Under the pieces are notes generated by a model. It searched no databases and was not told the DNA's origin. It was given only the letters and a program-made list of their open reading frames with translations. Source: Candidatus Hydrogenedentota bacterium (lineage in GTDB: Bacteria > Hydrogenedentota > Hydrogenedentia > Hydrogenedentales > SLHB01). From it: a stretch of DNA of 64,000 nt. The stretch lies in NCBI GenBank assembly GCA_963668025.2, contig CAXXTH010000018.1, positions 128,001-192,000 of the forward strand, given 5' to 3'. A program made the translations under genes and the position numbers. Below, in pieces: positions 7,101-38,482 of the stretch (the stretch's first letter is position 1; each line of letters opens with the position of its first letter).

Positions 7101-7103
7101 CAT

Positions 7104-14463: not shown

Positions 14464-14483
14464 TGACAGCATATCGGGTTTTC

Positions 14484-14518
14484 CACCGCAGAGGAGCACG
14501 GGGCGGCACGGGGAACGA
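14484..14518 (+). repeat. Degenerate CACGGGG-type repeat, junction 5
   Basis: caccgcagaggagcacggggcggcacggggaac; whole intergenic region nearly identical to junction 4. Confidence 0.75.
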
Positions 14519-14558
14519 GCAGTGCGGTTTATCGGACTGAAAAGTTTGGGAGGTGGAC

Positions 14559-15848: not shown

Positions 15849-15887
15849 GATTTTGAACCACGGGGAGCACGGGGCGGCACGGGGACC
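15849..15887 (+). repeat. CACGGGG-type repeat closing the permease array
   Basis: Exact copy of 11715-11753. Confidence 0.88.
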
Positions 15888-21376: not shown

Positions 21377-21952
21377 TTACGCACGCTTGCTGCTGCTTCC
21401 AAGCAAGGACAGCAATTTATCCCAATACGCAAGCACAATCCACAGCAAAAACGGCAAGGTAATAAAAACCTCGCCCAGGGCGTTGGCCACTTCAGACACC
21501 TGGTAGATCTCTTTTCGGAAATAGAATGCAAGCACCAGAAATGCGAAATGGCAAGCGCACAAAACACCCAGCCCAATGGCGAGTATCACGCCCCGGCGCT
21601 TCCAGGTAATCCCTCCCGTGGCCAGCACCAGCGCGATATATGGCGCAATATTATCCACCAGCCGGCCAATAGAAGAAGGGCTGGCTTTCCCCCCCATGAC
21701 AAAGGCTAAAGTCGTCTCGGTGTTGAATATGCCGCCCGACTCCACTTGAACCCCTTCAATGGGCACGCCGAGTATGAAATGTAAAAATGACGCGGCCACC
21801 CACCCGAGCGCCCAGGCATAGTACGGCATTATTTGCCAAAAGACATAAAGGCAAAACGGTACGATCAGCACGAACCGCAATACCAGAAAAAGCAGCTCCC
21901 TTAGTTGGAAGCCGCTTTCGCTGGTTTTTCCTTCACCAGTAGTTCCACCCAT
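21377..21952 (-). CDS. Exosortase-associated membrane protein
   Basis: About 4 TM segments; PYIALVLAT...WKRR..ILAIGLGVL resembles a degenerate exosortase core without the Cys; overlaps the exosortase 3' end. Start uncertain. Confidence 0.65.
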   Translation of the reverse strand: MGGTTGEGKTSESGFQLRELLFLVLRFVLIVPFCLYVFWQIMPYYAWALGWVAASFLHFILGVPIEGVQVESGGIFNTETTLAFVMGGKASPSSIGRLVDNIAPYIALVLATGGITWKRRGVILAIGLGVLCACHFAFLVLAFYFRKEIYQVSEVANALGEVFITLPFLLWIVLAYWDKLLSLLGSSSKRA

Positions 21953-23208
21953 AACAGCCATACCACCACCACAAAAATGATAAAAATCCCTTGCCACACA
22001 TATTCATGCACAAATTTAAAAATCTGGCCGCCACGGTCCACGGCCCCAATATATCCCAAACAGGTCAAGCGCCCCACATTGACCAAATATAGGAGCGGCA
22101 CGCCGAGAATAATGCCCACTAGGCGTTTCCAGTAGCGGGCGGGAAACGCCAGCACCGCCGCTACAAAAATGGCCATGGAGGGGATCGCGCCGCAATCGGG
22201 CACTAGCGTGAATGAAAAGGCCACAGGACGGCGTTCGTCACTGCTGGGCGGCAACGACGTAATATATGCTTGAACCGTATCCAGTTCCTGCTGAATGGCC
22301 GCTTGTTGCGCGGACCGCTCCTCTTCCGAAAGCTCCGTATCTTTCCCGATAGCCTCCAGCCGGTTCTGGAGTTCCGCCGTTTGCTGGGAAGGAGAGCGCT
22401 CTTTGATGAAACCGACCAGCGGGCCATTGTTTTTAAGCTTCTCTTGGAGCTGCACCAAGCGGCTCCTCAGGAACTCCTTCTCCTTTATACGCAATTCGGC
22501 AACCTGTTCTTGCAGCCGCTCCAGCGTCGAAGTGAAAGACTGGAAATCCAAACCGCCCTGGCCAAGCGACACCCCTGTTTCATTCAGCACTTGATTAATG
22601 TTGGGAAGCGCTTCGGTTATTTCCTTAGGTGCGGACGATTCACCCAGCGTGGAAGAGCGCGTCTCGCGAATCACATTCTCCAGCTCGCCGACTTCGATGC
22701 GGATTGCCGCCAAATGGTCTTCCGGGGTAGTGACCACTGTGCTCTTTGGCTCAAGCGTTTTTAACGCTTCTTTGTGTTTTTGGATCGATTTTAATAAAAC
22801 AACCGTCTTGTACCGGCAAGATTCCCATGCCGTCAATGCAGGCGCACTTTCACCTTCCGCGCCTGGGTCCGATTGGGCGGCTTGCCGTCCGTCCCATTGC
22901 TGCAACACACTTCGAATCTCTTGCTCCCGGCCGGAATAGGCCGAAGCCGGTTCCACTTGGCACGAATCCCCAAACAAACGAAGCGCCCAACTGGTATGCG
23001 TGCCAACCAGATAAAGATAATAATCGTTCGCTTTCGAGCCAATTACATATCGATAACCTGCCAGCATCGCCAATACCGCTACCAGAAACACCACCACGAA
23101 CATTATGGTGCGGCGTTTTCGATCATCCGGCTCCTGCGGAGCCTTCACCGGCTCTGGCTTCGGAAACGATACATATCCACTTACTTTGACGTCGTTTGCG
23201 TCAGGCAT
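21901..23208 (-). CDS. Exosortase/archaeosortase family protein (XrtH-like) with large soluble insertion
   Basis: Cys-Arg-His triad context: VPDCGAI..MAIFVAAVLAFPA, VNVGRL, FVHEYVWQGIF. Start uncertain (ORF open to 23394). Confidence 0.88.
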   Translation of the reverse strand: MPDANDVKVSGYVSFPKPEPVKAPQEPDDRKRRTIMFVVVFLVAVLAMLAGYRYVIGSKANDYYLYLVGTHTSWALRLFGDSCQVEPASAYSGREQEIRSVLQQWDGRQAAQSDPGAEGESAPALTAWESCRYKTVVLLKSIQKHKEALKTLEPKSTVVTTPEDHLAAIRIEVGELENVIRETRSSTLGESSAPKEITEALPNINQVLNETGVSLGQGGLDFQSFTSTLERLQEQVAELRIKEKEFLRSRLVQLQEKLKNNGPLVGFIKERSPSQQTAELQNRLEAIGKDTELSEEERSAQQAAIQQELDTVQAYITSLPPSSDERRPVAFSFTLVPDCGAIPSMAIFVAAVLAFPARYWKRLVGIILGVPLLYLVNVGRLTCLGYIGAVDRGGQIFKFVHEYVWQGIFIIFVVVVWLLWVELLVKEKPAKAASN

Positions 23209-23465
23209 GCGCGCGGTACTCCCGAATAAAAAGCCTGCTTCACCCTGTGAGGCGAAGCACGGCCTGTGAAGCGTTTCAAGGGCATCAAAGCATATCATGT
23301 TCAAAGCCATGGGGCAACCATCAAATACCTGCGTAAAATGGTCACAATGCGAGACATACGATAACGCGGAATAAAAACAGGAAGGCGTTTTCAACGAAGA
23401 ATGGACTTAACTATGACTTTAACCTTCAGTGGAATTTTTCCGTAGATAAAGCATGCACATTTCAT

Positions 23466-23533
23466 CCAGGCGCATGGACTCCCCGTTTCCCGGTGGGCGT
23501 CCATGCGTCTGGGCGGTTTTGTTTGGGGCATGG
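23466..23533. repeat. 68-bp hairpin-containing block identical to 29351-29418
   Basis: ccaggcgcatggac...gtccatgcgtctgg stem directly after the last beta-helix gene. Confidence 0.85.
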
Positions 23534-25048
23534 CTATTTTCTCATCCGCCGCGCACGCCATAGGGCAACGAGGAGGAGGCCGGTGAGGGCGGCTCCGGCG
23601 GCGAGGGGCAATATGGGCGGCGTGCTCGATGGATCGAGCGGATCCGTGCCGTATTGGATCTCGATGCCGTCGGGCACATGGTCACCGTCCGTGTCGGCCT
23701 TGTAGAGGTGGGTGTGATACGTGGTCCACTCGGTGTTGTTCGTGAGGCCGTCGCCGTCTGAATCCGCTTCCGGGTCGTACTCGTACGCGCCAAAATCGTA
23801 TTTTTCATTAATAGGGCGCGCCGTGCCCGCCAAATCGGGAGTAAAAAGCTCCGGCACGGTCGAGTAGAGCAGCTCATTTCCGTCTATGGCTGGGCTATCG
23901 GGCATCAGGCGGTAATCTCCGTGTTCCGCATCCACGAAATGAGGGTCGCCACTGAACAACACCCCCCATTGGCGATACACTCCCTGTTCGACCTTTACAG
24001 GCTCATCCCCGGCATCGGGCATCAAATTGGTCTCCGCGTTTATCTCGCCATACAAATATATCGTCGGCCCTTCCGGAGCCTGGTTGTTTATAAATGTGCA
24101 GTGAGAGACATTGTAAGTGTTAATCCATATCTCTGTCTGGGCATCTCTCGAAGAATGCAGCCAAAGAGCCCCGCCTTGTTCATCCGCTGCATTATCAATG
24201 AACAAGCAATTGGAAATTCCGCCGCCGCCAAACATATCTAGCGCACCTCCATATGCGGCGCTATTGTTACGAAAAATGCATCTGACAAAATAGCAGCTAT
24301 CCCCACATCGAGCCACTCCTCCATGCCCGTCTGAAGAAAGCGCCTTATTGTATTCAAAAATACAGTCATAAAAGGATGCTATCCCAGGCGCATCTTTCAC
24401 GCCACCCCAAGGCGCCTCGTTTTGTGTGAATTTTGTGTTTCTAACCGTTATCGTTCCACCACGTTGACCAATGGCCCCTCCCGCACTTGACGCTTGATTG
24501 TTTGTGAAAAGACAGTTGCGTATTTCCACTTGCGCGTATGCTTGAGTGCTTAGGCCTCCTCCGGATTTACCCAACGAACCCGAACCTGGTTTGTTTGCAA
24601 ATCCGCCAGTAATAGTAAATCCGTCCAAAATAGAATTATTTCCCGCATTGACAACCGAATATGCGGGAGAGCCTTGGAAGGATTTTGAACCATCTATTAC
24701 CGTGGATTCTGGCAGGATATCTCTCTCTTCAACGGAAGTCTCATCCCCGTTGAATCCACCAAATAACTGTATTTCATCGGACAATTTCAGACAGCCTGCC
24801 GGTATGTCTTGAATCATCCCGGTTCTTTCCTCATCATAGAAGCCTTTCGCAACCCAAACCTCACCCGCTCCCGAAACGCTAGCGGCATCAATTGCGGGCT
24901 GAATTGTTTTGAACGCCGTCTGCCACGACGTTCCATCCTCCACATCGGATAGGTTGTCTTTATCGACGTACCACACATCCGCTATGGCGGGTAGCGCGAC
25001 GATAAATGCACTCGAGAAGCATAGGCAGAGCAAAAGACGTTGGCTCAT
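23534..25048 (-). CDS. Secreted parallel beta-helix protein P5 with Ca-binding repeats and C-terminal sorting tail
   Basis: Signal peptide, VWYVD..W.TAF.TIQ.AI, GGA/N repeats, DPHF..DYRL..DSPAID...GAYE, DSDGDGL/GTDPLDP, tail LPLAAGAALTGLLLVALWRARR; GGAGG RBS, ATGA-coupled to P4. Confidence 0.85.
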   Translation of the reverse strand: MSQRLLLCLCFSSAFIVALPAIADVWYVDKDNLSDVEDGTSWQTAFKTIQPAIDAASVSGAGEVWVAKGFYDEERTGMIQDIPAGCLKLSDEIQLFGGFNGDETSVEERDILPESTVIDGSKSFQGSPAYSVVNAGNNSILDGFTITGGFANKPGSGSLGKSGGGLSTQAYAQVEIRNCLFTNNQASSAGGAIGQRGGTITVRNTKFTQNEAPWGGVKDAPGIASFYDCIFEYNKALSSDGHGGVARCGDSCYFVRCIFRNNSAAYGGALDMFGGGGISNCLFIDNAADEQGGALWLHSSRDAQTEIWINTYNVSHCTFINNQAPEGPTIYLYGEINAETNLMPDAGDEPVKVEQGVYRQWGVLFSGDPHFVDAEHGDYRLMPDSPAIDGNELLYSTVPELFTPDLAGTARPINEKYDFGAYEYDPEADSDGDGLTNNTEWTTYHTHLYKADTDGDHVPDGIEIQYGTDPLDPSSTPPILPLAAGAALTGLLLVALWRARRMRK

Positions 25049-26544
25049 CTCGCATACCTCCAACATTTCGTCTCATATATCCGCCATAAGGCTATGAATA
25101 AAAAGCTGATTAGTACGGCTCCGGCGGCAAGGGGAAGAATGGGCGGCGTGCTCGATGGATCGAGCGGATCCGTGCCGTATTGGATCTCGATGCCGTCGGG
25201 GACATGGTCACCGTCCGTGTCGGCCTTGTAGGGATGAGTGTGATAGGTGGTCCACTCCGTATCATTCGTGAGGCCGTCGCCGTCCGAATCCGCCTGCGGG
25301 TCGTATTCATACGCGCCGAAATCGTATTTTTCATTAATCGGGCGCACCGTGCCCGCCAAGTCGGGAGTAAAAAGCTCCGGCACGGTCGAGTAGAGCAGCT
25401 CATTTCCGTCTATGGCCGGGCTGTCGGGCATCAGGCGGTAATCTCCGTGTTCCGCATCCACGAAATGAGGGTCGCCACTGAACAACGTACCAAACCAATT
25501 ATACGCGCCTCGTTCCACCTTTACAGGCTCGTCTCCGGCATCGGGCATCAAATTGCTCTCCGCGTTCACCTGGCCATACAGATATATTGTAGGTCCCTCT
25601 GGAGCTTGGTTGTTGACAAATGTGCAATACAATATATTATGTGAGCCTATCCACCCTTCCGTTTGGGCATCTATACCGCAACTCAGACTTAATGCTCCTC
25701 CCTTTTCATCAGCTACATTGCCAATAAACATACAATTCTCCACTAGACTTGTGGAGTATATCTTTAATGCCCCACCAATAGCAGCATGATTCTCCCGGAA
25801 AATACAACGTACAAACTTAGGTTGCCAGTTTGTCGAACCTCCTGCATAGGCTCCCCTATTTTTCTCAAAAACGCAGTCATAGAAGTCGGCGTCTCCACTT
25901 GCACCTACCGCATCGTTACTTCGGAAGATGCAGTTACGCACTTCCAATATGGATTGCAAGTTGACTGCTGAACGACCTTCGGCTGCCTGATTGCCCTCAA
26001 ATATACAGTTGTTGACATGACTAACGAAGACCTCTCTATTTGCCTCAGTCAGCAAAGCCGCCCCGGAATAGCCCCATTCCCGGGCGTCTCCTCCCGTAAC
26101 CGTGAATCCGTCGATTGTGGAGTTTGCGCTGAGGAACACCACACATATGGCTGGTTGTCCATCAAGTGCATTAGAGCCATCAATTATGGACCTAGACGCT
26201 CCTGACGACCTTTCAGGATGTTCCAGCTCATTTCCTACAAATCCGCCGTAAAGTGATACATTCTCATGTACCATGAGCGAACCGGTCACTACTTGATCAT
26301 ATTGATAATACAAAACCCCATTTCTTGTTTCATTATAGTTGCCTTCCGCCACCCACACTTCTCCGCCTCCATCTGCTTCAGCGGCATCAATCGCGGGCTG
26401 AATTGTTTTGAACGCCGTCTGCCATGATGCTCCATTTTCCACTCCCGATAAGCTGTTTATGTCAACATACCAAACATCCGCTGCGCTGTGAAGTCCGAAA
26501 AGAGCAGCGGTTATCATACTTATCCCTATCTGTCTACAGTTCAT
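25045..26544 (-). CDS. Secreted parallel beta-helix protein P4
   Basis: Same architecture; GGAGGA RBS before ATG 26544; tail variant LPLAAGAVLISFLFIALWR. Confidence 0.85.
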   Translation of the reverse strand: MNCRQIGISMITAALFGLHSAADVWYVDINSLSGVENGASWQTAFKTIQPAIDAAEADGGGEVWVAEGNYNETRNGVLYYQYDQVVTGSLMVHENVSLYGGFVGNELEHPERSSGASRSIIDGSNALDGQPAICVVFLSANSTIDGFTVTGGDAREWGYSGAALLTEANREVFVSHVNNCIFEGNQAAEGRSAVNLQSILEVRNCIFRSNDAVGASGDADFYDCVFEKNRGAYAGGSTNWQPKFVRCIFRENHAAIGGALKIYSTSLVENCMFIGNVADEKGGALSLSCGIDAQTEGWIGSHNILYCTFVNNQAPEGPTIYLYGQVNAESNLMPDAGDEPVKVERGAYNWFGTLFSGDPHFVDAEHGDYRLMPDSPAIDGNELLYSTVPELFTPDLAGTVRPINEKYDFGAYEYDPQADSDGDGLTNDTEWTTYHTHPYKADTDGDHVPDGIEIQYGTDPLDPSSTPPILPLAAGAVLISFLFIALWRIYETKCWRYAR

Positions 26545-26802
26545 GGTAGGAATCCTCCATTCAGAAAATTCTGGCCACAGATCAGTATTGCTCGTACCAG
26601 AAATAGTATTCCCCAATAGAAGGAGTAGGCACTTCATCCGCACCTATGTCTCGTTCTTCATCGATGAGGTATGGACTCGCGTAGATCTCAGGCATAGTGA
26701 TGTTACCCAACGGGTAGGAATCTCTTGGCGCGACGGAATGATCAATGTCGAAGTAGGTAGTCGCGCCGTATACATTGCGCTCTGTATCATGATAAATAAT
26801 TG

Positions 26803-28330
26803 GTAACACTTTAGCCGTCTGGCGCAACTATAAGTAGCGTTTCGGTATAATATAGTTACAAGATGTTGTGGTTTTGGGCCAAGACGCCATGGCGACGGCA
26901 ATAAGTGGCATTCCATTGGGACCGCTGCTCTCGGAGGAGCAAGCCCGAGCGATCTACGCATTGGGCGAAGATGCCGTGGTGTTTGCCCTGTTGGCGCAAT
27001 CCAAGCTGCTGTCGGAGCAGCAGGCCGAGGCGGCGTTCACTTCCCACCAAACGCCCTCCACCCCTTCGGGCATGCAGCCAGTTTACGGGAAACCCCAGAC
27101 GCCTGTGCGCGGCAAGAAAAAGCCGGGACGCAAGATGGGCCACCCCGGCAGCCGGCGCGTGCCGCCCGAACGTATCGACCGGCGTGAAACACACCGCACC
27201 AAGGTGTGTCCCGACTGCGGCGGGCCGCTGGACCGCCGCGCGGAGACCCGCACGCGCTACACCGAAGACATACCCGAAGGCATCCGTCCGGAAATCACCG
27301 AGCATACCATTCACCGCGACTGGTGTCCGCGATGCAAGAAGAAAGTCGAGCCGGTTGTGGCGGCGGCCTTGCCGGGCGCGACCCTGGGCAACCGGGTGCT
27401 GGTCCTCAGCGCGTGGCTGCACTATGTGTTGGGCAACACGCTTTCGCAAATCGTGGAGGTCTTCGATTTCCACCTGCTTTTCCAGGTCACGCCGGGCGGG
27501 CTGCTGCACATGTGGCGCAGGCTGGCGGAGATTCTCCTGCCTTGGTACGAGGCCATTCACCAGGAAGCGCTGGACTCGGCGGTGCTCAACGCCGACGAGA
27601 CCGGCTGGCGCGTGAATGGCAAGACCCGATGGCTGTGGTGTTTCGCCACCAAAGGGCTGAGCTTTTTCCTGATCGACCATTCGCGGGGGAGTCCGGCGCT
27701 CCAGCAGTTCTTCACGCGGGAATTCGCCGGAACGCTGGTGGCCGACTTCTGGGCCGCGTACAACGCCGTGGCGTGCGCCGCCCGGCAGAAGTGCCTCGTG
27801 CATTTGTTGCGCGAACTCGAGCACGTGGAGAAATACAAATCGCCCAGCCCGGCCTGGCCCGCCTTCGCCAAAAAGCTGCGCCGCCTGATTGCCGACGCCA
27901 TCCGGCTGTGGCGGCGGCGCGGCGAGCTCGAACCGGAGGCGTACGACTCGCGCCGCGCGCGCTTCGCCCGGCGCTTGCGGGACTTGTGCGATACGCCCTG
28001 GGAGGACGCCAACGCCAAGCGCCTCATAAAAAGGCTGCGCCGACACCAGGATGAACTCTTCACTTTTCTCGGCCAATCAGATGTTCCCTTCGACAACAAC
28101 TTGGCGGAACGCTCCATCCGTCCTGCCGTTATCCTGCGCAAAAACAGTTACTGCAACCGCAGCGACCAAGGAGCCGCCATACAAGCGGTGCTCATGAGCG
28201 TCTTCTTTACTTTGAAAAAACGCGGGCAAAACCCCGTCTGCACCGTCTGCAACGCCCTGGTCCACTACCTCAACACCGGCCAATTGCCTCCCCTGCCACC
28301 GGAAAACACTTCAGTCGGCTAAAGTGTTAC
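26803..28330 (+). mobile_element. IS66-family element, single-ORF (ISBst12-like organisation), 1528 bp
   Basis: Terminal inverted repeats GTAACACTTTAGCCG at both ends; 8-bp target duplication AATAATTG (26795-26802 and 28331-28338). Confidence 0.95.
26868..28322 (+). CDS. tnpA: IS66 family transposase
   Basis: CPDCG/CPRC zinc finger, NADETGWRV, QKCLVHLLR, DNNLAERSIR. This is the TnpC-type DDE enzyme; no accessory ORFs are present. Confidence 0.93.
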   Translation: MVLGQDAMATAISGIPLGPLLSEEQARAIYALGEDAVVFALLAQSKLLSEQQAEAAFTSHQTPSTPSGMQPVYGKPQTPVRGKKKPGRKMGHPGSRRVPPERIDRRETHRTKVCPDCGGPLDRRAETRTRYTEDIPEGIRPEITEHTIHRDWCPRCKKKVEPVVAAALPGATLGNRVLVLSAWLHYVLGNTLSQIVEVFDFHLLFQVTPGGLLHMWRRLAEILLPWYEAIHQEALDSAVLNADETGWRVNGKTRWLWCFATKGLSFFLIDHSRGSPALQQFFTREFAGTLVADFWAAYNAVACAARQKCLVHLLRELEHVEKYKSPSPAWPAFAKKLRRLIADAIRLWRRRGELEPEAYDSRRARFARRLRDLCDTPWEDANAKRLIKRLRRHQDELFTFLGQSDVPFDNNLAERSIRPAVILRKNSYCNRSDQGAAIQAVLMSVFFTLKKRGQNPVCTVCNALVHYLNTGQLPPLPPENTSVG

Positions 28331-29284: not shown

Positions 29285-29323
29285 TAACCACGGGGACACG
29301 GGGCGGCACGGGGATATTTTGGG
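29285..29323 (+). repeat. CACGGGG-type repeat abutting the 5' end of the headless cassette
   Basis: taaccacggggacacggggcggcacggggatattttggg; same family as 11715 and 15849. Confidence 0.85.
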
Positions 29324-29350
29324 CGATGATTTTAGTCGATGCCCAAACGC

Positions 29351-29418
29351 CCAGGCGCATGGACTCCCCGTTTCCCGGTGGGCGTCCATGCGTCTGGGCG
29401 GTTTTGTTTGGGGCATGG
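29351..29418. repeat. 68-bp hairpin-containing block identical to 23466-23533
   Basis: Direct comparison of the two copies. Confidence 0.85.
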
Positions 29419-30918: not shown

Positions 30919-30946
30919 GTGCTAAACCTCCTTTTACAATGTATGT

Positions 30947-32440
30947 CTACATTTGTTGCTTCATCCGCCGCGCACGCCATAGGGCAACGAGGAGGAGGCC
31001 GGTGAGGGCGGCTCCGGCGGCGAGGGGCAAGATGGGCGGGGTGCTCGATGGATCGAGCGGGTCCGTGCCATATTGGATCTCGAGGCCGTCGGGGACATGG
31101 TCACCGTCCGTGTCGGCCTTGTAGGGGTGGGTGTGATACGTGGTCCACTCGGTGTTGTTCGTGAGGCCGTCGCCGTCTGAATCCGCTTCCGGGTCGTACT
31201 CGTACGCGCCAAAATCGTATTTTTCATTAATCGGGCGCGCCGTGCCCGCCAAGTCAAGTAACACAAATTCCGGATCGGTGTTTTCGAGATCATTTGAATC
31301 AATAGCCGGACTGTCAGGCATAAGACGGTAATCACCGTTTTCCGGATCCGCAAAATGGGGATCACCATTAAATAAACTGCCAAACCAGTGATATTCACCC
31401 TGTTCGACGGTAACGAGTTCATTTTCGGCGCTGGAAATCAAATTGTTCTCGATGTACAACAGTCCATACAGATACACTGTGGGCCCTTCCGGAGCTTGAT
31501 TATTCACGAATGTACAATGAGATATGTCGTGGGAACCTATCCACCCTCCTGTTTGGGCATCTGTTCCATTGTTCAGCCTTAAAGCTCCACCTTGTTCTTC
31601 TGCTGTATTACTTACAAAAAGGCAATTGGACACATGGCTGCCATTGGTAAGCCTCAATGCTCCGCCTTCTACGGCGTGATTGCCTCGAAAAATGCAGCGA
31701 ACAAACATCGGCGACCAATTGGTGGAGCCTCCTACGTAAGCGCCTTTGTTATTCTCAAAGACGCAGTCATAAAAGGAAGCATCTCTTTCCGCACCTAATG
31801 CGCTGTTGTTTCGAAATATGCATTTACGCACTTCCACAATAGACAAAAAGCTCACCACCGCTCCAGTTCCGTCGGACTTATTATTCTCGAAAATGCAGTT
31901 GCTAATATTAATGTTGTCTTTTTTGCGTGCCGTTAGTATCGCCGCTCCTGACCTGCCCAATGAGTTATGGGGATCAATCGATCGGGCGTATCCACCTGTA
32001 ATGGTAAACCCATCAATTGTCGTAGTTGCGTCAAGAAAAACAACACATGCGGCGGGTTCTCCCGAAAGCGACGTAGAGCCATCAATTATAGACTTATGTA
32101 ATGCGGGAGCTCTTGCATCACGTTCGGTTTCATCTCCTGCAAAACCGCCGTAAAGCGATGCATTCTCATGCACCATGAGAGAACCTGTCGCTACTTCGTC
32201 ATACAGAACTCCATTTCTCACTTCATTATAGTTACCCTCGGCCACCCATACTTCTCCGCCGCCATCTGCTTTAGCTGTATCAACGGCAGGCTGAATGGTT
32301 GTGAAGGCCGTCTGCCACGACATTCCATCCTCCACGCCGGAATGGTTGTCTTTATCGACGTACCACACATCCGCTATGGCGGGTAGTGAAAAGATGAAAA
32401 CAAACAGGTAAAGCATGCAGCTCGAAATGCGCAGTATCAT
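30947..32440 (-). CDS. Secreted parallel beta-helix protein P2
   Basis: Same architecture; N-terminus and upstream spacer nearly identical to P3. Confidence 0.87.
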   Translation of the reverse strand: MILRISSCMLYLFVFIFSLPAIADVWYVDKDNHSGVEDGMSWQTAFTTIQPAVDTAKADGGGEVWVAEGNYNEVRNGVLYDEVATGSLMVHENASLYGGFAGDETERDARAPALHKSIIDGSTSLSGEPAACVVFLDATTTIDGFTITGGYARSIDPHNSLGRSGAAILTARKKDNINISNCIFENNKSDGTGAVVSFLSIVEVRKCIFRNNSALGAERDASFYDCVFENNKGAYVGGSTNWSPMFVRCIFRGNHAVEGGALRLTNGSHVSNCLFVSNTAEEQGGALRLNNGTDAQTGGWIGSHDISHCTFVNNQAPEGPTVYLYGLLYIENNLISSAENELVTVEQGEYHWFGSLFNGDPHFADPENGDYRLMPDSPAIDSNDLENTDPEFVLLDLAGTARPINEKYDFGAYEYDPEADSDGDGLTNNTEWTTYHTHPYKADTDGDHVPDGLEIQYGTDPLDPSSTPPILPLAAGAALTGLLLVALWRARRMKQQM

Positions 32441-32468
32441 GTGCTAAACCTCCTTTTACAATGTATGT

Positions 32469-33965
32469 CTACATTTGTTGCTTCATCCGCCGCGCGCGCC
32501 ATAGGGCAACGAGGAGGAGGCCGGTGAGGGCGGCTCCGGCGGCGAGGGGCAAGATGGGCGGGGTGCTCGATGGATCGAGCGGGTCCGTGCCGTATTGGAT
32601 CTCGAGGCCGTCGGGGACATGGTCACCGTCCGTGTCGGCCTTGTAGGGGTGGGTGTGATACGTGGTCCACTCGGTGTCATTCGTGAGGCCGTCGCCGTCC
32701 GAATCCGCCTCCGGGTCGTATTCATACGCGCCTAGGTCGTAGTTCGCACCGAGGGGACGTTGCGTGCCCGCCAGGTCTGGGTTATAAAGCTCGGGCACAC
32801 CGGTATCCAAGCCATTGGCGTCAATCGCCGGGCTGTCAGGCATAAGACGGTAGTCCCGATTTTCTGGATCAACAAAGTGAGGATCTATGTAGAGAACTCC
32901 TGACTGCTCAAACCTACTCAATTCATATTTTCCGTCTGTTAATTTTACAGATTCATCACCGGCATCGGGCATCAAATCATTCTGTGCATCCACAACTCCA
33001 TAGATATACATAACTGAACCTTCTGGAGCTTTATTATTGATGAACGTACATTGGCTGACATGATGAATGCCAGCCCATCCCTCCCATTGAATGTTTTCTT
33101 CTGAACGAAGATACAGGGCACCCCCTTTCTCGTCAGCAATATTGTCTACAAAAACACAATTGAATACCGCACTATTCGGAAATAAACTCAGGGCACCACC
33201 TTTCGCGGCATGGTTACCTCGAAAAATACATCGAATAAACATAGGTTGCCAATTTGTCGAACCTCCCGCATAAGCTCCTTTATTATTCTCAAAAACGCAG
33301 TCATAAAAGGAAGAGTCTCCGCTCGCACCTAACGCATCGTTGTTTCGGAAGATGCAGTTACGTACCTCTAATATGGATTGCAGGCGAACTGCTGACCGGT
33401 CTTCGTTTGCTTGATTACCCTCAAATATGCAGTTATTGATATGAATAATGTAAACATCTTGATCTGCTTCGGTCAGCAAAGCCGCCCCCGAATCGCCCCA
33501 TTCACGTGCGTCTCCTCCCGTGATAGTAAACCCGTCAATTGTTGCGTTCACACTGACAAAAACTACACAAACGGCTGGCTTCCCTTCGAGCGCGTTGGAG
33601 CCATCGATTATGGTATTGTATAGAGAAGGAGACCGCTCCGCGCGAGCGGCCTCCTTTCCCGAAAATCCACCATAAAGCGGGATTCCTTCATGCACCATGA
33701 GCGTTCCCGTCTCGACTTCGTCATATCGGACAGAGGTGCCTCTTCTAGGCTCATTGTAAACGCCTTCCGCCACCCACACTTCTCCCTTGTAATCCTCCAC
33801 GGCGGCATTTATGGCTGGTTGAATAGTTGTGAACGCTGTTTGCCATGTCGTTCCGTCCTCCATGCCGGATTGGTTGTCTTTATCAACATACCACACGTCC
33901 GCCATACCTGGAATAGCAGCTAAACACATTAACCCTATTATCAAACCCACATGCATGTATCGCAT
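32469..33965 (-). CDS. Secreted parallel beta-helix protein P1
   Basis: Same architecture; GGAGGA RBS before ATG 33965. Confidence 0.87.
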   Translation of the reverse strand: MRYMHVGLIIGLMCLAAIPGMADVWYVDKDNQSGMEDGTTWQTAFTTIQPAINAAVEDYKGEVWVAEGVYNEPRRGTSVRYDEVETGTLMVHEGIPLYGGFSGKEAARAERSPSLYNTIIDGSNALEGKPAVCVVFVSVNATIDGFTITGGDAREWGDSGAALLTEADQDVYIIHINNCIFEGNQANEDRSAVRLQSILEVRNCIFRNNDALGASGDSSFYDCVFENNKGAYAGGSTNWQPMFIRCIFRGNHAAKGGALSLFPNSAVFNCVFVDNIADEKGGALYLRSEENIQWEGWAGIHHVSQCTFINNKAPEGSVMYIYGVVDAQNDLMPDAGDESVKLTDGKYELSRFEQSGVLYIDPHFVDPENRDYRLMPDSPAIDANGLDTGVPELYNPDLAGTQRPLGANYDLGAYEYDPEADSDGDGLTNDTEWTTYHTHPYKADTDGDHVPDGLEIQYGTDPLDPSSTPPILPLAAGAALTGLLLVALWRARRMKQQM

Positions 33966-34012
33966 TTGAAGATCCTCCATTTTCAAAAGGTCTAGGTCAT
34001 CCAAACACAGGC

Positions 34013-37000
34013 TTATAAGTCTTCGTACCAGAAATTATACTCGCCTGTAGGTGGCGTAGGAGCTTCATCCGCTCCTATATCACGATCAAACAAGTTGTTC
34101 TGTATAGGAGCTTGTGCAGGCACTCCCTCTGCACCGTCTCTTGGAGCGACGGAATGGTCAATATCAAAATAGGTGTAAATATAACCTGTTTCTGCATCGT
34201 AAGGAGTAAATCCCCTGTCCACGCATGGTGACGCATAGTCAGGAACCCCATCATCATCGCTATCCGGTCCAATCATGAGATGCAGGAAATCATGGAAATT
34301 TGAACCGTTAAATGTCTGTGTGACGAAGCCAGGTGTGGCATATGCAACAGGATCCACCCATGGACCGATTGTAGTCCCCCAATACACAATTTCTAGACCG
34401 GAGGCATCGAGATCCTGTTCGGTGAAGCAGTGCCCAAGTGACTCTGTTGAAGAAGATAAGTAGACATCTTCCCAATCAGGTGCGTCGTTCTGCCAGTAGA
34501 TGCAATTCATTTGATTGTCATAATCAACGCCATAACTATACGCCGCGCCTCCACCTTCAGCCGTCGCGGTGTTCTCCACAAAGGTGTTTTGTTGAAGATA
34601 ACAAGGAGTGCAGCCGCTCATTCCTCCTCCATCCGAATACCAACCTTCTGCTTTGTTTTTCCATAAGATATTGCCCGAAATCAGATATCCATTGCAGTTT
34701 GCCATGCCGCCCCCGCCGCCAGTCGGATAAATGATCTTATTTTTGATAAACCAATTACAGGTGATGTAGCCATTGTAACGATCATTTGTAGCGCCAGTAT
34801 CACCGCAATACGCCAATGCGCCGCCATAACTCGCTTGGTTGCACCAGAATATGTTCAGCCGGATAATCCCGTCACAATCGTAGCACGCCCCACCCGCGTC
34901 GCTGGCGATATTGCTGGAGGCCCAAGACGCGCTCGAATCATACGCACCGAACACATTGCGGTCGATAATGCCGTCCACGTTGTTTATGCACGCTCCGCTC
35001 CCGGAGATGCTGTTGTTGATGAACTTGCAGTACATGATGGAGGCATCACAGCCATTTCCCGCGATGCCGCCGCCGTAGGCGTACGATGAATTCTTTTGAA
35101 TCGTGAAGCCCTGCAAAGAGCAATCCCATGTCTCGGTTCCGCTGAAGGTTACCGCCCGGCCATTGTTGGCGGAATTTTGGATAAATGTACGATTACGCAC
35201 ATCCGTACGATAGAGATTGTAGGGTTCAGCAGAACGAATAACCAGATTCTTACCTCCGAAATTGATGGCGCTGTACGTTCCAGGCCTGACTTCAATAATA
35301 TCACCAGCAGTGGCCGCATTGATGGCGGATTGTATGCCCGAGGCGCCGTTGAAGTCGATGTCGTCGCCTGCAGTAGGAGCTACTGTCCAGAGATGGCCTT
35401 GTCCGGGATCCTGGTCCGCGCCTTGAGGCCTGCAACCCTGATATACACTGCCGCGAATGAACAAGGAGCCTCTCGGCGCCGTGAGCGTTTGATGAGGCGA
35501 ATTCGGATTTGTATATTGTAGTCCATTAACAGTGGTAATATATCCTACAATAGTATTCGCGTCATCCCGGAAGACATGTGCTGAACCAGGCGGTGAGGGG
35601 AAATTGTACTGTGTATTGAAATCTTTTACGACTTGGCCCGCCAAATAGAGCACGGGGAAGGGAGGCTTCGCCGGATCCCATGCTTTTGCGGAATAAGAAG
35701 GGCACAGGGCAGCAACTGGCGTATTATCCGACGCACGGACGGTGAAAAGAGGTGAATCGCCCGCCGCGGAAGTTACACAAGTCGAGTTCTCATCGATTTT
35801 TCCATCAATATACAGGCCAATATAGGTATGCTCCGAATCTATATGATCGAGTGGCCGGAGCAATGTGTTTCCTTTTCCGTCGTCGCTGGCAACGGCGGAG
35901 CCAATGATGGACATGATATTCCGGACTCCGCTAGCTCCGGGAGCGCGGCAATCGTCCGGAATGGTACTGTTATAACCGTCTTGAATATGCTTAGCCAGTT
36001 TGACAGCTCCGTACATGTTGATCATGCCCCATCCCGTGTATTTGTTCGGATGGGTGGTGGCGTGATCAAAACGCCTCTGATCATTGGCCAGCCAATCCTG
36101 TTCCGTGGAATCCGGCCAATACACATTGTACGGTGATGGGTTCCAAACACCATACCGATAGGGATACAAAGGGTTGTTTACATCCGTAATGCTGTAATCA
36201 TATTTCAGCGGCAGTGCGCTCAGTTTCATGAGCCATTCGATCTCGGTGGGGGAAAGGGCGGGATTCTTGGTGAGCATAAGCGCCGCGAGACCCACTCCAG
36301 CGGGAGCGGTGTTCGAGTTAGAAGCATTCAGTTTAACCTGGAATATTTCATCGGCATTGTCACCAGGATCATATAGTTTCAAATACATTGTAGCAGTTCG
36401 ATAATCATAATCGTTTTGACCATTCGGTATAAAATCCTCGTCAAAATTAGGGATACTGCCAGGCCGATTTGGGTCTCCAGCCGCCATCACATCGATAATG
36501 CTGCCATAACTTGAGCCCATACCGGCGGTCATGAACCGGCTTCGCCTGCCTTTGGCGTCTCCAGCGCTTAAAATGATCATCTCATTAAAGCTCTGGGGAA
36601 AATAGGGATGTGCGTCCATATCGACATTGTAATTGGCACACCAGATCACCGTGACGCCCCGGGCGCGCGCCAGCAAAATGGCTTCATACAATTCAGGATC
36701 ATAAGTTTGGGAAAAGGTGCATAAGGAAAGGATATGAGCGATATCGCCCAATTCCATTGCCGAGTAATTGGCGAATTGATACTGCCCTACAGTGGAATCG
36801 CGTTCTCCTATCGCGTAACGAATACCATCAACCACTAAAGCTGGATAATGGATATTGGATTCGTTCAGTACTGCTTCAGAAAAATCCCATGTATTGTAAT
36901 GATATCGAATGGGCATTATCTCAGCACTAGGACAAAGCCCGACACTTTCGGTGCCATCCATATTATCCAAGTCTGCCGGATCTGGATTATTGAAAGGCCT

Positions 37001-38482
37001 TGCTGCTTCGATGACTGCTGCAGCGAATCCATGTCCTCGTAAGGAATTAGCCACGTACCATCTAGAGTAATCTGAAAAGGGAATAGCATCTCCATCTGGA
37101 AAATCCGGATCTGTTCCGACAAAATCCCATCCAAATATATCTTTAGCTCCGGCGTTATATGCCTTGATGTTAAACCATTGGTTGGGCGTAAGGTCAGGAC
37201 AGCCCGCTTTATAGAGGGAAAAAGCATTTGCATATTCAGGACCTGTAAGTTGCATATTATCGTTTTGCACTGGAACCCATGCGGCATTATAAGGGTGATA
37301 TGGCGGGCTTAGGCTGGGCTGCAGATTATAGTATTGTCCTCGGTAAAAATGATTCGCTTGTTCATAATCCAAGGGCACGCCATCGTCTAGCGAAGCGATG
37401 ATGGTTTTTGGATAATTCTGCCACCATGCATTGCCCGTCGGCCAACTGCTTCCATACACCTCTGTCCACGCTTTGACTGCATTCATGTGGTTCGCATCCC
37501 AATACCACCGAACAGGCTTAGGAGCAGGCCGCTCCGTGTCTACGAATTGTTCATCTGTTGGAGCTGGGATGTCCGTCTGCGTCTTGTATAGCGGCGCGAA
37601 CACGGGGGCGGCGGCTTTCACGAGGCCGCTGCGCTGATACTTGTTGGCGTAGTCGTTGGTGAGAAGGGGGAAACCGGAGGCGTCCACCGCGCGGGCGTGG
37701 TAGGGGATGCGGATGCGGTAGGTGACCGAGCCTATCTCCTTGTAGTCCACCCGTTTAAGGATTTCGGCTCCGTCTTCGGCGAAGAGCGCCAGTACTTTTT
37801 CTTCATTGTCGTCTTTCCGAATAACAACGGTGAGCATTTCGGTCATAAGTGACTTCATCTCGGTGCCGCAGGTCCAGGCGGTCATGACGGCATCGACATC
37901 GTCCCGTTTGCTTAGTTCGGCGACTAAGGTGCGGATATCGTCTTTCGTTTTCGCGCCGGAGACTTTCATGACGGCCGCGCCGTTGAAGTTGATGTCCATC
38001 GGGATAAGTGTATCGCCCACTTGGACATAGGAGCTTTTATCCTGTACCGCGTCCGCCTTCAGGGCGAGTTCGCCCGCGCGGGCCTTGGCCTGTTCGCCGG
38101 AAACGATTTTATCGGCGGTGATGGCCGTGAGGCGGGCGTCGCTATTGAGAAATTGGACCACCTCTTCAACCCGTTTTTTTTCACGAAATGAAACGCCGAT
38201 GGTGTCCGTACACATCTCGATGGGGACGCGCTTGCCCTGCCATCCATAATAGTAGGGGCCGATATCCTCCTCTTCCGGGGCGAACATGGCGCGGGTTTCG
38301 GCGCGGCGCTGCTCGATTTCCTCGCGCGTGAGGGCGGCAGGGGCTTGCGAATCGTTGGAACTGGTGAATTCTGTAGGAGTTATGCTTTCGGTGGATTGGG
38401 CGGAAATGGGGGATTCATTGATGATGAATCCCAGGCAGACAACCAGAACGACACTTAAGACGGACCACACGATACGGCGCAT
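34013..38482 (-). CDS. Large secreted protein: prodomain, divergent S8 (subtilase-like) domain and C-terminal beta-helix
   Basis: Signal peptide; IIASLDDG, DIFGWDF, RGHG, AEIMPIR, SSYGSIIDVMAAG, SNSNTAPAGVGLAALMLTKNP, TGWGMIN; then IQSAINAATAGDIIEVRPGTY and GGG/N beta-helix repeats. Confidence 0.8.
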   Translation of the reverse strand: MRRIVWSVLSVVLVVCLGFIINESPISAQSTESITPTEFTSSNDSQAPAALTREEIEQRRAETRAMFAPEEEDIGPYYYGWQGKRVPIEMCTDTIGVSFREKKRVEEVVQFLNSDARLTAITADKIVSGEQAKARAGELALKADAVQDKSSYVQVGDTLIPMDINFNGAAVMKVSGAKTKDDIRTLVAELSKRDDVDAVMTAWTCGTEMKSLMTEMLTVVIRKDDNEEKVLALFAEDGAEILKRVDYKEIGSVTYRIRIPYHARAVDASGFPLLTNDYANKYQRSGLVKAAAPVFAPLYKTQTDIPAPTDEQFVDTERPAPKPVRWYWDANHMNAVKAWTEVYGSSWPTGNAWWQNYPKTIIASLDDGVPLDYEQANHFYRGQYYNLQPSLSPPYHPYNAAWVPVQNDNMQLTGPEYANAFSLYKAGCPDLTPNQWFNIKAYNAGAKDIFGWDFVGTDPDFPDGDAIPFSDYSRWYVANSLRGHGFAAAVIEAARPFNNPDPADLDNMDGTESVGLCPSAEIMPIRYHYNTWDFSEAVLNESNIHYPALVVDGIRYAIGERDSTVGQYQFANYSAMELGDIAHILSLCTFSQTYDPELYEAILLARARGVTVIWCANYNVDMDAHPYFPQSFNEMIILSAGDAKGRRSRFMTAGMGSSYGSIIDVMAAGDPNRPGSIPNFDEDFIPNGQNDYDYRTATMYLKLYDPGDNADEIFQVKLNASNSNTAPAGVGLAALMLTKNPALSPTEIEWLMKLSALPLKYDYSITDVNNPLYPYRYGVWNPSPYNVYWPDSTEQDWLANDQRRFDHATTHPNKYTGWGMINMYGAVKLAKHIQDGYNSTIPDDCRAPGASGVRNIMSIIGSAVASDDGKGNTLLRPLDHIDSEHTYIGLYIDGKIDENSTCVTSAAGDSPLFTVRASDNTPVAALCPSYSAKAWDPAKPPFPVLYLAGQVVKDFNTQYNFPSPPGSAHVFRDDANTIVGYITTVNGLQYTNPNSPHQTLTAPRGSLFIRGSVYQGCRPQGADQDPGQGHLWTVAPTAGDDIDFNGASGIQSAINAATAGDIIEVRPGTYSAINFGGKNLVIRSAEPYNLYRTDVRNRTFIQNSANNGRAVTFSGTETWDCSLQGFTIQKNSSYAYGGGIAGNGCDASIMYCKFINNSISGSGACINNVDGIIDRNVFGAYDSSASWASSNIASDAGGACYDCDGIIRLNIFWCNQASYGGALAYCGDTGATNDRYNGYITCNWFIKNKIIYPTGGGGGMANCNGYLISGNILWKNKAEGWYSDGGGMSGCTPCYLQQNTFVENTATAEGGGAAYSYGVDYDNQMNCIYWQNDAPDWEDVYLSSSTESLGHCFTEQDLDASGLEIVYWGTTIGPWVDPVAYATPGFVTQTFNGSNFHDFLHLMIGPDSDDDGVPDYASPCVDRGFTPYDAETGYIYTYFDIDHSVAPRDGAEGVPAQAPIQNNLFDRDIGADEAPTPPTGEYNFWYEDL

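What the first reader, a model, noticed from the sequence alone, without database searches (positions are those of the whole stretch)
21377..38482. Candidate undescribed surface-display and variation system: subtilase-beta-helix, spare C-terminus, five anchored beta-helix paralogs and a dedicated exosortase in one operon
Seen: one minus-strand run arranged as two units, [full 1489-aa protein, P1, P2, P3, 68-bp hairpin] and [headless C-terminus, P4, P5, the same 68-bp hairpin], followed by an exosortase and its partner gene. Known: exosortases process C-terminal motif-TM-basic tails, and 'full gene then orphan alternative C-terminus then partner genes' is the layout of recombination-diversified polymorphic loci. 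Inference: this is a non-toxin version in which a secreted protease with an exchangeable beta-helix tip is co-expressed with a variable set of exosortase-anchored beta-helix proteins that may act as its docking or substrate-binding partners.
Basis: partly seen in the sequence, partly recalled or inferred. Interest (0 to 1): 0.88.

Follow-up and report, generated by a model that had tools for sequence, protein, structure and literature searches.

The report
Exosortase-linked beta-helix gene array, one broken
A Hydrogenedentota bacterium carries a tandem array of a secreted protease and five anchor-tailed beta-helix surface proteins next to a sorting enzyme, and the supposed spare protease end is an old truncated gene copy now split by a jumping gene, not a working switch.

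Summary
The genes are there: a 1489-aa secreted S8-type protease with a C-terminal beta-helix, five paralogous beta-helix proteins (P1-P5) that share a motif/TM/basic tail, an 80-nt identical stretch with a hairpin after P3 and P5, a headless copy of the protease's beta-helix domain, and an XrtH-like exosortase with its partner gene.

- The headless copy is split by a 1528-bp IS66-family element with an 8-bp target duplication.
- A dispersed repeat abuts the copy's 5' break.
- The exosortase pair occurs across the order. In 10 of 10 relatives' loci examined it stands without protease or P genes.

The protease-then-P gene pair is a conserved Hydrogenedentota module whose P anchor varies (dockerin in one relative).

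Cassette exchange is not supported. Synonymous divergence between the headless copy and the protease gene is above 1, and the longest identical run is 26 nt. No fused form was seen, but the laid contigs were too fragmented to show one.

The copy is not neutral junk either. dN/dS is 0.04-0.1 and its frame has no stop in 388 codons. Headless copies with their own start sites recur in another genus.

Verdict: a lineage-specific paralog array beside a housekeeping sortase, with one open puzzle. Moderate interest.

The parts
34013..38482 (-). Secreted S8-family subtilase (1489 aa). It has a signal peptide, a divergent catalytic domain with D366/H484/N617/S723, and a C-terminal P-like beta-helix domain from about residue 1040.
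   Evidence: ORF. Pfam gives no hit for the window's own protein, and NCBIfam gives only a weak mycosin hit. In alignment A1 the triad and oxyanion columns are invariant. 7 of 8 A1 members hit PF00082. The A1 profile hits thermitase and subtilisin chains at E 1e-32 to 1e-20. The C-domain is homologous to P: hhalign probability 99.3%, E 7e-21.
32469..34004 (-). P1, a beta-helix surface protein with a TSP3 repeat and the sorting tail. The likely start is the ATG at 33965.
   Evidence: Pfam Beta_helix, Chlam_PMP and TSP3_bac. NCBIfam choice_anch_Q 34.8 bits against a cutoff of 25. Tail.
30947..32440 (-). P2, a paralog of P1. It is preceded by a 28-nt spacer with an AAGGAGG ribosome-binding site.
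29419..30918 (-). P3, a paralog. The P2-to-P3 junction is identical to the P1-to-P2 junction.
29351..29418 (-). 68-nt stretch after the P3 stop, with a hairpin. The stem extends to about 29338.
   Evidence: 100% identical to 23466-23533. MFE -48.1 kcal/mol for 29320-29418. No T-run on the coding strand.
29286..29314 (-). Copy of a dispersed intergenic repeat (three CCCCGTG units). It ends 2 nt before the point where homology to the protease gene starts.
   Evidence: blastn-short gives 24 hits genome-wide, counting this copy. Loose ends of run X3 contigs sit at 29283 and 29314.
28331..29284 (-). Headless copy C', 5' piece. It corresponds to protease residues 1103 to about 1426.
   Evidence: tblastn 59% identity, E 4e-104. 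Homology starts abruptly at 29284. dN/dS.
26803..28330 (+). IS66-family insertion sequence with a single 484-aa transposase ORF (26868-28322).
   Evidence: NF033517 274.6 bits against a cutoff of 180; Pfam DDE_Tnp_IS66. Inverted repeats and an 8-bp duplication at 26795-26802 and 28331-28338. 13 blastn hits in the genome, 12 of them at 99.5% identity or more.
26582..26802 (-). Headless copy C', 3' piece. It corresponds to protease residues about 1437-1489 and includes the stop.
   Evidence: tblastn 57% identity. It is in the same frame as the 5' piece, because the IS plus its duplication is 1536 nt, or 512 codons. The joined frame has 0 stops in 388 codons.
25045..26643 (-). P4, a paralog. The likely start is the ATG at 26544. 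The tail's basic end is degenerate, and the stop overlaps the P5 start (ATGA).
23534..25066 (-). P5, a paralog. The likely start is the ATG at 25048.
23466..23533 (-). Second copy of the 68-nt stretch after the stop. Here the hairpin lacks the outer 3' stem.
21901..23394 (-). XrtH-like exosortase. It has N-terminal TM segments, a variable coiled-coil insert of about 240 aa, and a catalytic C-terminal part.
   Evidence: TIGR04178 51.3 bits against a cutoff of 23. TIGR04177 XrtH is the best subfamily at 72.4 bits, below its cutoff of 86. C401, N439, R442 and H463 are invariant in 8 sequences. Found in 34 of 41 genomes.
21377..21997 (-). Membrane partner of the exosortase.
   Evidence: NF041730 XrtH_assoc 22.1 bits, below the cutoff of 35. 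A homolog lies next to the exosortase in 10 of 10 relatives' loci.

Best explanation
The region is a lineage-specific tandem expansion of a two-gene module that occurs in Candidatus Hydrogenedentota. The module is a secreted S8 subtilase whose C-terminus is a PbH1-type beta-helix, followed by a signal-peptide-bearing 'choice-of-anchor Q' beta-helix protein (P).

In this genome the array has come to lie directly upstream of the XrtH-like exosortase and its membrane partner, a pair found across the order. The five P paralogs carry a species-specific tail: an ILPLAAG-type motif, a TM helix and a basic cluster. Inferred: P1-P5 are exported by Sec, and the neighbouring XrtH-like enzyme most likely cleaves and attaches them at this tail. 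The protease itself has no anchor.

The 'spare C-terminus' (C') is a 5'-truncated paralog of the protease's beta-helix domain. A tandem duplication with one breakpoint inside the protease gene would produce exactly this layout. Shown: C' diverged long ago, was kept under purifying selection for most of its history, and was recently split by an active IS66-family element. Shown: there is no sign of sequence exchange between C' and the protease gene.

Diversity in the array comes from ordinary paralog divergence. Gene conversion keeps the ends of the P genes alike. It is not a programmed switch.
For: - Phylum: record titles of relatives' contigs.
- Module: in relatives' loci where the protease gene carries the beta-helix C-domain and sequence continues, a P homolog follows in 8 of 8 (G009 C259, C47, C287, C73; G069 C97, C29; G015 C212; G122 C305). 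The protease C-domain and P are homologous.
- Anchors differ: Dockerin_1 in a G009 P, other TM-basic tails in G069.
- Lineage-specific expansion: P1-P5 are 59-75% identical to P1, against 34-38% for relatives. C' is sister to the window's own protease C-domain with 100/100 support.
- Exosortase: it scores above the family signature cutoff and its Cys/Asn/Arg/His columns are invariant. It is present in 34 of 41 genomes. Its partner is adjacent in 10 of 10 loci, and none of these has protease or P hits.
- Tail: only these five of 31491 ORF C-termini in the genome match the tail HMM.
- Old divergence under constraint: in the first 125 codons dS is 1.18, dN 0.044, ratio 0.04. In the rest, dS is saturated and dN is 0.50. 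The frame has 0 stops in 388 codons, against 4-33 stops in the other five frames.
- No exchange: about 85% DNA identity in the best block, and the longest exact match is 26 nt.
- IS recency: intact 8-bp duplication and 99.5-100% identity to 11 other copies.
- The junction from the hairpin through C' to the IS end lies on one independent contig of run X1 (28303-29380, 0 differences).
- P mosaicism: the ends are up to 96-100% identical in 90-nt windows, while core windows fall to 35-60% in most pairs.
Against: - A truncated by-product of duplication should have decayed, yet C' stayed open and constrained. Changes at conserved sites are only 9 on the C' branch against 4 on the protease branch.
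- Headless C-domain ORFs recur in another genus: G009 C259 (437 aa) and G009 C287 (360 aa). Each lies after a P gene plus hairpins and before another P. Each has a Shine-Dalgarno-like site and a start codon, and dN/dS against the full copy is about 0.1-0.2. The three 5' ends fall within about 55 codons of one another. This argues that headless copies are, or were, functional, which the statement leaves unexplained.
- Which of the two exosortases in the genome processes P1-P5 is not shown. No curated C-terminal sorting model fits the tail. No relative has this tail: 0 convincing hits in 53 family genomes, best E 0.015.
- The window's protease is too divergent for Pfam S8, so its activity is inferred.
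Confidence: 0.6

Rival explanations
1. The headless beta-helix ORFs are genuine leaderless genes of the module. A unit of C-domain protein plus P protein is duplicated and retained because the leaderless C' protein works with the P protein encoded after it, for example in folding, assembly or docking. In this genome that gene was knocked out only recently by the IS.
For: - Three headless copies in two genera are all open, with dN/dS of about 0.04-0.2.
- Both G009 copies have a ribosome-binding site and a start codon.
- The layout is the same each time: P, hairpin, C', P.
- The 5' ends cluster within about 55 codons.
- The gene caller of a public source also calls the window's piece as a 356-aa protein.
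Against: - None has a signal peptide, while every homologous domain is extracytoplasmic by context.
- All three lack part or all of the beta-helix N-terminal cap.
- The window's copy has no ribosome-binding site near the point where homology starts. Its only in-frame ATGs lie within and just upstream of the hairpin, at 29416 and 29389.
- Headless copies were seen in 3 of 5 loci that could be judged, from 2 of 3 genomes. Only 7 near-length relatives exist among 5.8 billion proteins.
Confidence: 0.28
2. C' is a silent alternative C-terminus that recombines into the protease gene through the shared 5' block. This swaps the beta-helix tip and the set of co-expressed P partners, as in Rhs/CdiA orphan modules or pilS cassettes.
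For: - The layout is a full gene followed by a 5'-truncated alternative end followed by partner genes.
- The aligned 5' block is 93% identical in protein and the rest about 45%.
- The frame is open and under constraint.
- The same layout occurs in G009.
Against: - Synonymous sites in the 5' block are near saturation (pS 0.59), which repeated conversion would have erased. The longest identical run is 26 nt.
- That block is also the most conserved part of the domain across the whole family (A1 and A2 consensus), so ordinary constraint explains the identity pattern.
- There is only one cassette.
- In G009 the full and headless copies share only 68% DNA identity over 354 nt.
- Direct-repeat recombination here would delete P1-P3 irreversibly.
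- The cassette is now IS-disrupted.
Confidence: 0.07
3. Assembly artefact. The headless junction and the unit structure result from mis-joining of repeats during assembly.
For: - The region is repeat-rich, with five paralogs, a multi-copy IS and a dispersed repeat at the junction.
- Public contigs of the runs are fragmented here.
Against: - One contig of run X1 covers 28303-29380 without a difference. It spans the IS end, the whole 5' piece of C', the dispersed repeat and part of the hairpin. That run may be the source sample.
- The reading frame continues precisely across the IS with a perfect target duplication.
Confidence: 0.03

Closest known systems
Exosortase H (XrtH) with its XrtH-associated membrane protein and IPTL-CTERM or midcut-by-XrtH substrates (NCBIfam TIGR04177, NF041730, TIGR04174, NF033207)
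   Same: - XrtH is the best-scoring exosortase subfamily for the window's enzyme and for 4 of 4 relatives tested. One relative reaches the cutoff.
- A small multi-TM partner gene lies directly downstream.
- The substrates have a short motif, a TM helix and a basic cluster at the C-terminus.
   Different: - The window's enzyme scores 72.4 bits, below the cutoff of 86, and only the C-terminal half of the model is matched.
- The protein is about three times longer, with a variable insert of about 240 aa.
- The P tails do not match IPTL-CTERM or any other curated sorting-signal model.
- 41 other proteins in the genome carry a different, weakly IPTL-like tail.
PEP-CTERM/XrtA systems, with many scattered substrates and one housekeeping sortase
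   Same: - The logic is a membrane sortase plus tripartite C-terminal tails.
- The genome also has a true XrtA/EpsH-type exosortase with PrsT-like TPR neighbours, and 5 PEP-CTERM proteins above the cutoff.
   Different: - The enzyme in the window is not of the 8-TM EpsH type.
- P1-P5 do not match PEP-CTERM.
Orphan C-terminal modules of polymorphic toxin loci (Rhs, CdiA) and silent cassettes of antigenic variation (pilS). This comparison rests on recalled knowledge, not on a call.
   Same: A full-length gene is followed by a promoterless, 5'-truncated alternative C-terminus, and a small set of partner genes follows each end.
   Different: - There is no toxin domain.
- There is no near-identical recombination block (dS 1.18, longest match 26 nt).
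- There is a single cassette.
- No exchanged alleles were seen.
Choice-of-anchor Q beta-helix surface proteins and Chlamydia Pmp-like PbH1 repeat proteins (NF041518, PF02415, PF13229)
   Same: - P1-P5 score above the choice_anch_Q cutoff and carry Beta_helix and Chlam_PMP repeats.
- The anchor differs between relatives, as the family name implies.
- The domain type is very common: 39721 representative proteins at E up to 0.001, many with several tandem copies.
   Different: - Here the module is consistently paired with an S8 protease that carries the same beta-helix at its own C-terminus.
- It is expanded as separate genes, including leaderless copies.
IS66-family insertion sequences
   Same: Transposase above the NF033517 cutoff, terminal inverted repeats and an 8-bp target duplication.
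   Different: It has a single ORF and is only 1528 bp long, without the accessory ORFs of classical IS66. That three-ORF structure is recalled, not tested.

Membership tests
Exosortase/archaeosortase superfamily (TIGR04178 signature) | Score above the curated signature cutoff over the catalytic region | tested here: met
   51.3 bits against a cutoff of 23, residues 397-483. Whole-genome scan: 56 bits.
Exosortase/archaeosortase superfamily (TIGR04178 signature) | Conserved Cys, Arg and His in TM segments. That these are the catalytic residues is recalled. | tested here: met
   C401, R442 and H463, plus N439, are invariant in 8 aligned Hydrogenedentota sequences.
Exosortase H proper (TIGR04177) | Score at or above the curated cutoff (86 bits) over the full 158-position model | tested here: not met
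   72.4 bits, with model positions 64-154 only. Relatives score 71.6, 75.8, 86.1 and 71.6 bits.
XrtH-associated membrane protein (NF041730) | Score at or above 35 bits | tested here: not met
   22.1 bits. Of three relatives' partners, one scores 22.0 bits and two give no hit.
XrtH-associated membrane protein (NF041730) | Encoded next to the exosortase | tested here: met
   Adjacent or overlapping in the window and in 10 of 10 relatives' loci.
IPTL-CTERM sorting domain (TIGR04174) | Tail matches the model | tested here: not met
   None of P1-P5 is among the 7 genome hits at E up to 1. No hit when 3 of the 5 tails (P1, P5, P4) are scanned alone at E up to 10.
Exosortase substrate (generic) | C-terminal signature motif, then a hydrophobic helix, then a basic cluster at the very end, on a protein with a signal peptide | tested here: met
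   Read directly from the translations and alignment A3. P4's basic cluster is degenerate.
Exosortase substrate (generic) | Cleavage and attachment by the enzyme | not testable with these tools
   Needs proteomics or genetics.
Peptidase S8 (PF00082) | Match to the family model | tested here: inconclusive
   The window's protein has no Pfam hit at E up to 0.01. The 7 other members of alignment A1 all hit, best E 2.6e-28. The A1 profile hits subtilases in the PDB.
Peptidase S8 (PF00082) | Asp-His-Ser triad and oxyanion Asn | tested here: met
   D366, H484, S723 and N617 are invariant columns of A1. The surrounding motifs are atypical in the window's protein.
Choice-of-anchor Q domain proteins (NF041518) | Score at or above 25 bits | tested here: met
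   34.8, 29.3, 32.4, 28.4 and 30.9 bits for P1-P5.
Recombination-diversified loci with orphan C-termini | Orphan shares a near-identical block with the expressed gene | tested here: not met
   About 85% DNA identity, pS 0.59, longest exact match 26 nt.
Recombination-diversified loci with orphan C-termini | Alleles or strains with exchanged ends | tested here: inconclusive
   No such joint was listed among the contigs of 4 runs, but contigs drop rare forms. No close relative was found in two metagenome scans.
IS66 family | Transposase above the cutoff, inverted repeats, 8-bp duplication | tested here: met
   274.6 bits against a cutoff of 180. Ends and duplication.

The most novel reading that the evidence does not exclude
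Units of a leaderless beta-helix C-domain ORF plus a P gene are a selected, recurrently generated building block of a Hydrogenedentota surface module. The signal-less copies are kept under purifying selection in at least two genera. Either they are made and act with the anchored P proteins, or they serve as rarely used exchange cassettes for the protease's tip. The anchor of P is swapped between lineages (exosortase tail, dockerin, others).
Probability: 0.2. Interest if true: 0.65.

Novelty: new variant of a known kind. Interest (0 to 1): 0.38.

Why it matters
If the reading holds, the locus is mainly a clean example of three things:
- A poorly known phylum builds surface-protein diversity by tandem paralog expansion.
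- A 'choice-of-anchor' protein family has picked up a species-specific exosortase-type tail next to the sortase gene.
- An active IS is eroding such an array.

It also defines a conserved pairing of an S8 protease and a beta-helix protein in Hydrogenedentota that has no assigned role.

The one point that could matter more widely is the repeated retention of leaderless, cap-less beta-helix ORFs under purifying selection. This is not explained by any known sorting or variation system.

Tried and rejected
- Complex prediction (protease C-domain with P1) was not available, so docking between the protease tip and P remains untested.
- The search for related loci with the C-domain alignment A2 failed for lack of a conserved stretch. 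With A1 it gave 12 genome loci and 11 metagenome loci, mostly ones already seen or distant S8 proteins. The single-protein metagenome scan found nothing.
- Sequencing runs: no RNA holder was listed. The laid contigs were too fragmented to judge structural variants. The listed joints have short sides (21-40 nt) and join paralogous P sequences or lie within the IS, as expected from repeats. No joint linking the protease gene to C' and no IS-free joint was listed.
- Co-occurrence of the genome's 41-member tail class with the XrtH-like gene across 40 relatives was uninformative. The class is present in 21 of 33 genomes with the enzyme and 3 of 7 without, and three of the latter are 83-86% complete.
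- The profile search of 1.84 billion representatives was swamped by generic multi-domain beta-helix giants, so it could not count headless forms.
- The small ORF that stands beside the protease gene (upstream in most loci) in relatives has no homolog in this genome.
- Literature: two full-text searches found no paper on XrtH, IPTL-CTERM or a Hydrogenedentota subtilase-beta-helix module in the held library. I saw listings and abstract starts only. The 2012 exosortase/archaeosortase paper (PMC3256604) is not held. What is said about catalytic residues and XrtH substrates beyond the NCBIfam names is recalled.
- Earlier findings of this scan: three look-ups returned nothing.

Full report
**What is in the sequence.** On the minus strand of 21377-38482 lie, in order of transcription:
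- a 1489-aa ORF (34013-38482);
- three ORFs of about 500 aa, P1-P3;
- a stretch homologous to the end of the first ORF;
- two more ORFs of about 500 aa, P4 and P5;
- a 497-aa ORF and a 206-aa ORF.

P1-P5 hit Beta_helix, Chlam_PMP and bacterial TSP3 repeats in Pfam. They score above the NCBIfam cutoff for the choice-of-anchor Q domain. All five end with the same tail: an invariant PPILPLAAGA motif, a hydrophobic helix and a basic cluster. The basic cluster is degenerate in P4. The P1-to-P2 and P2-to-P3 junctions are identical 28-nt spacers with an AAGGAGG site, and P4 and P5 overlap by ATGA.

The 12 last coding bases and the 68 bases after the stop of P3 are 100% identical to those of P5. This stretch forms a strong hairpin and occurs nowhere else in the 6.1-Mb genome.

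Between the headless copy and P4 sits a plus-strand ORF that is an IS66-family transposase (274.6 bits against a cutoff of 180). The element is 1528 bp long (26803-28330). It has 15-bp terminal inverted repeats and a perfect 8-bp target duplication. blastn gives 13 hits for it in the genome, 12 of them (counting this one) at 99.5% identity or more, so it is active or recently active.

The IS lies inside the headless copy. Residues 1103 to about 1426 of the protease are matched by 28331-29284, and residues about 1437-1489 by 26582-26802. IS plus duplication is 1536 nt, so the frame is preserved across it. The joined frame has no stop in 388 codons, while the other five frames have 4 to 33.

Homology to the protease gene starts abruptly at 29284. 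That is 2 nt after a copy of a dispersed intergenic repeat (three CCCCGTG units), which gives 24 blastn-short hits in the genome counting this copy.

**The protease.** Pfam gives nothing for the window's protein, and NCBIfam gives only a weak mycosin hit. phmmer against PDB sequences finds nothing. Relatives found in the same order settle it:
- In an alignment of eight proteins, D366, H484, N617 and S723 are invariant.
- The seven other members hit PF00082.
- The profile hits thermitase and subtilisins at E 1e-32 to 1e-20.

The window's protein keeps the triad but has atypical surrounding motifs, so activity is inferred. Its C-terminal 450 residues are homologous to the P proteins (hhalign probability 99.3%, E 7e-21, 281 columns). 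The array therefore holds seven copies of one beta-helix module: one fused to the protease, five with a signal peptide and tail, and one headless. This module type is very common. 39721 representative proteins match at E up to 0.001, and many of them are giants with several tandem copies.

**Relatives.** Record titles of matching contigs place the family in Candidatus Hydrogenedentota. Protease homologs were found in 15 of 133 genomes of the order. The C-domain was found in 12 of 135 genomes of the phylum.

In every locus where the protease gene has the beta-helix C-domain and the contig continues, a P homolog follows. This is 8 of 8 loci, from G009, G069, G015 and G122. Two further loci end too soon to judge. 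Two others (G105, G106) have a protease without this C-domain and a different downstream gene. The protease-then-P pair is thus a conserved module.

The anchor of P varies. A G009 P has a type I dockerin, and G069 P proteins have other TM-basic tails. The window's tail was not found in 53 other genomes of the family (best E 0.015). It is carried by only these five of 31491 ORF C-termini in its own genome.

**The exosortase.** The 497-aa protein scores above the exosortase/archaeosortase signature cutoff. Its best subfamily is XrtH, at 72.4 bits, below the cutoff of 86, and only the C-terminal half of that model is matched. C401, N439, R442 and H463 are invariant in eight Hydrogenedentota sequences. 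A stretch of about 240 residues between the N-terminal TM segments and the catalytic part varies and is absent from the shortest form. The downstream gene weakly matches the XrtH-associated membrane protein (22.1 bits against a cutoff of 35).

Homologs of the enzyme occur in 34 of 41 genomes searched. In 10 of 10 relatives' loci fetched, the partner gene is adjacent, and no protease or P homolog lies within the 12-39 kb examined. The pair is therefore a conserved, stand-alone feature of the order, and its adjacency to substrates is peculiar to this genome.

The genome has a second exosortase of the XrtA/EpsH type with PrsT-like neighbours and five PEP-CTERM proteins. It also has 41 further proteins with a [D/S][L/V]P[V/A]AG...basic tail. 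A few of these weakly resemble IPTL-CTERM and midcut-by-XrtH signals. An HMM of that class does not hit P1-P5 at E up to 0.1. Co-occurrence across relatives did not resolve which enzyme serves which class. Assigning P1-P5 to the neighbouring enzyme rests on adjacency and tail architecture only.

**Is the headless copy a spare, exchangeable end?** The aligned 5' block looks conserved in protein (93% identity against about 45% for the rest). In DNA, however, it is only about 85% identical. Synonymous sites are near saturation (pS 0.59, dS 1.18), dN is 0.044, and the longest exact match is 26 nt.

That block is also the most conserved part of the domain across the whole family. Constraint therefore explains the identity pattern without invoking recombination. 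Repeated gene conversion would have homogenised synonymous sites. There is one cassette only, and it is now IS-disrupted. No joint linking the protease gene to C' appeared among contigs of four public runs, although contigs cannot exclude rare forms. The exchange model is therefore disfavoured.

**Is it a decaying one-off duplication?** No. dN/dS is 0.04 in the first 125 codons and about 0.1 overall, and the frame is open. At sites where outgroups agree, C' has 9 derived changes against 4 in the protease copy. In a tree of ten C-domains, C' is sister to the window's own protease domain (100/100), so it arose within this lineage.

Another genus shows the same thing independently. G009 has two loci with the order protease end, P, headless C-domain, P. 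Its headless ORFs are 437 and 360 aa long. Each has a Shine-Dalgarno-like site and a start codon but no signal peptide, and each follows hairpins that stand after the preceding P gene. Against the full copy, their pS is 0.70-0.75 and dN 0.36-0.47.

The three 5' ends fall within about 55 codons and cut into the N-terminal cap of the beta-helix. Of five loci that could be judged, three have a headless copy, from two of three genomes.

A tandem duplication with one breakpoint inside the protease gene yields this layout directly. Why the product stays constrained is not explained. I keep two possibilities open: a functional leaderless protein (rival, 0.28) and, less likely, a rarely used cassette (0.07).

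**The P paralogs.** Codon-aligned P genes are mosaics. The ends are up to 96-100% identical in 90-nt windows, while core windows fall to 35-60% in most pairs. High-identity tracts switch partners along the gene. This fits gene conversion at the signal-peptide and tail ends, together with divergence of the exposed beta-helix. It is evolutionary diversification, not a switch.

What remains of interest:
- a conserved Hydrogenedentota pairing of S8 protease and beta-helix protein, with lineage-specific anchors;
- a new tail motif beside a long XrtH-like enzyme;
- the unexplained retention of leaderless beta-helix copies.

Noticed in passing
window 29286-29314; also about 11722-11751, 14497-14514 and 15856-15885; further copies on other contigs of G000: A dispersed intergenic repeat made of three CCCCGTG units followed by GTGGT and an A-run. 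blastn-short gives 24 hits. Some stand as inverted pairs about 100 nt apart, around a shared palindromic core. One copy abuts the 5' break of the headless copy.
   Followed up: partly
window 26803-28330 and 12 other places in G000: A single-ORF IS66-family element of 1528 bp. blastn gives 13 hits in the genome, and two of them are adjacent on contig C13.
   Followed up: partly
window 21901-23394 and relatives (alignment A6): The XrtH-like exosortases of this order carry a variable, partly coiled-coil insert of up to about 240 residues between the first TM segments and the catalytic part. A 230-aa form in G039 lacks it.
   Followed up: partly
L052 (G009 C259) 287-8544: In G009 the protease-P module lies directly downstream of type II secretion genes: a GspH-like pseudopilin, a GspK-like protein and a secretin.
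   Followed up: no
window 38936-39322 (+); L075 5433-7499: An ECF-type sigma factor gene stands divergently upstream of the protease gene in the window. An ECF sigma fused to a solute-binding domain follows the module in G009 C287.
   Followed up: no
relatives: L052 9483-9902, L055 1114-1506, L057 2945-3406, L058 3307-3753, L056 5212-5589: A small secreted-looking ORF (about 125-150 aa) with a conserved C-terminal ...V(I/V)xxLG end stands beside the protease gene in relatives, upstream in four of these five loci and downstream in G008 (L056). tblastn finds no homolog in G000.
   Followed up: partly
window 8449-15836 (+): Five consecutive same-strand ORFs of 424-503 aa have no Pfam hit at E up to 1e-4; two of them were rescanned at 0.01 with the same result. 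Copies of the CCCCGTG repeat lie at three spots among the last three. Whether the ORFs are paralogs was not checked.
   Followed up: no
window 24000-26000 and 30000-38000: The array has lower G+C (about 0.50) than its flanks and the contigs (0.53-0.58).
   Followed up: no
window 16404-17825 (-), 51725-54892 (+), 55575-58541 (-): dnaA, a C25 (gingipain-type) peptidase with propeptide, and a Type ISP restriction-modification enzyme are in the window.
   Followed up: no
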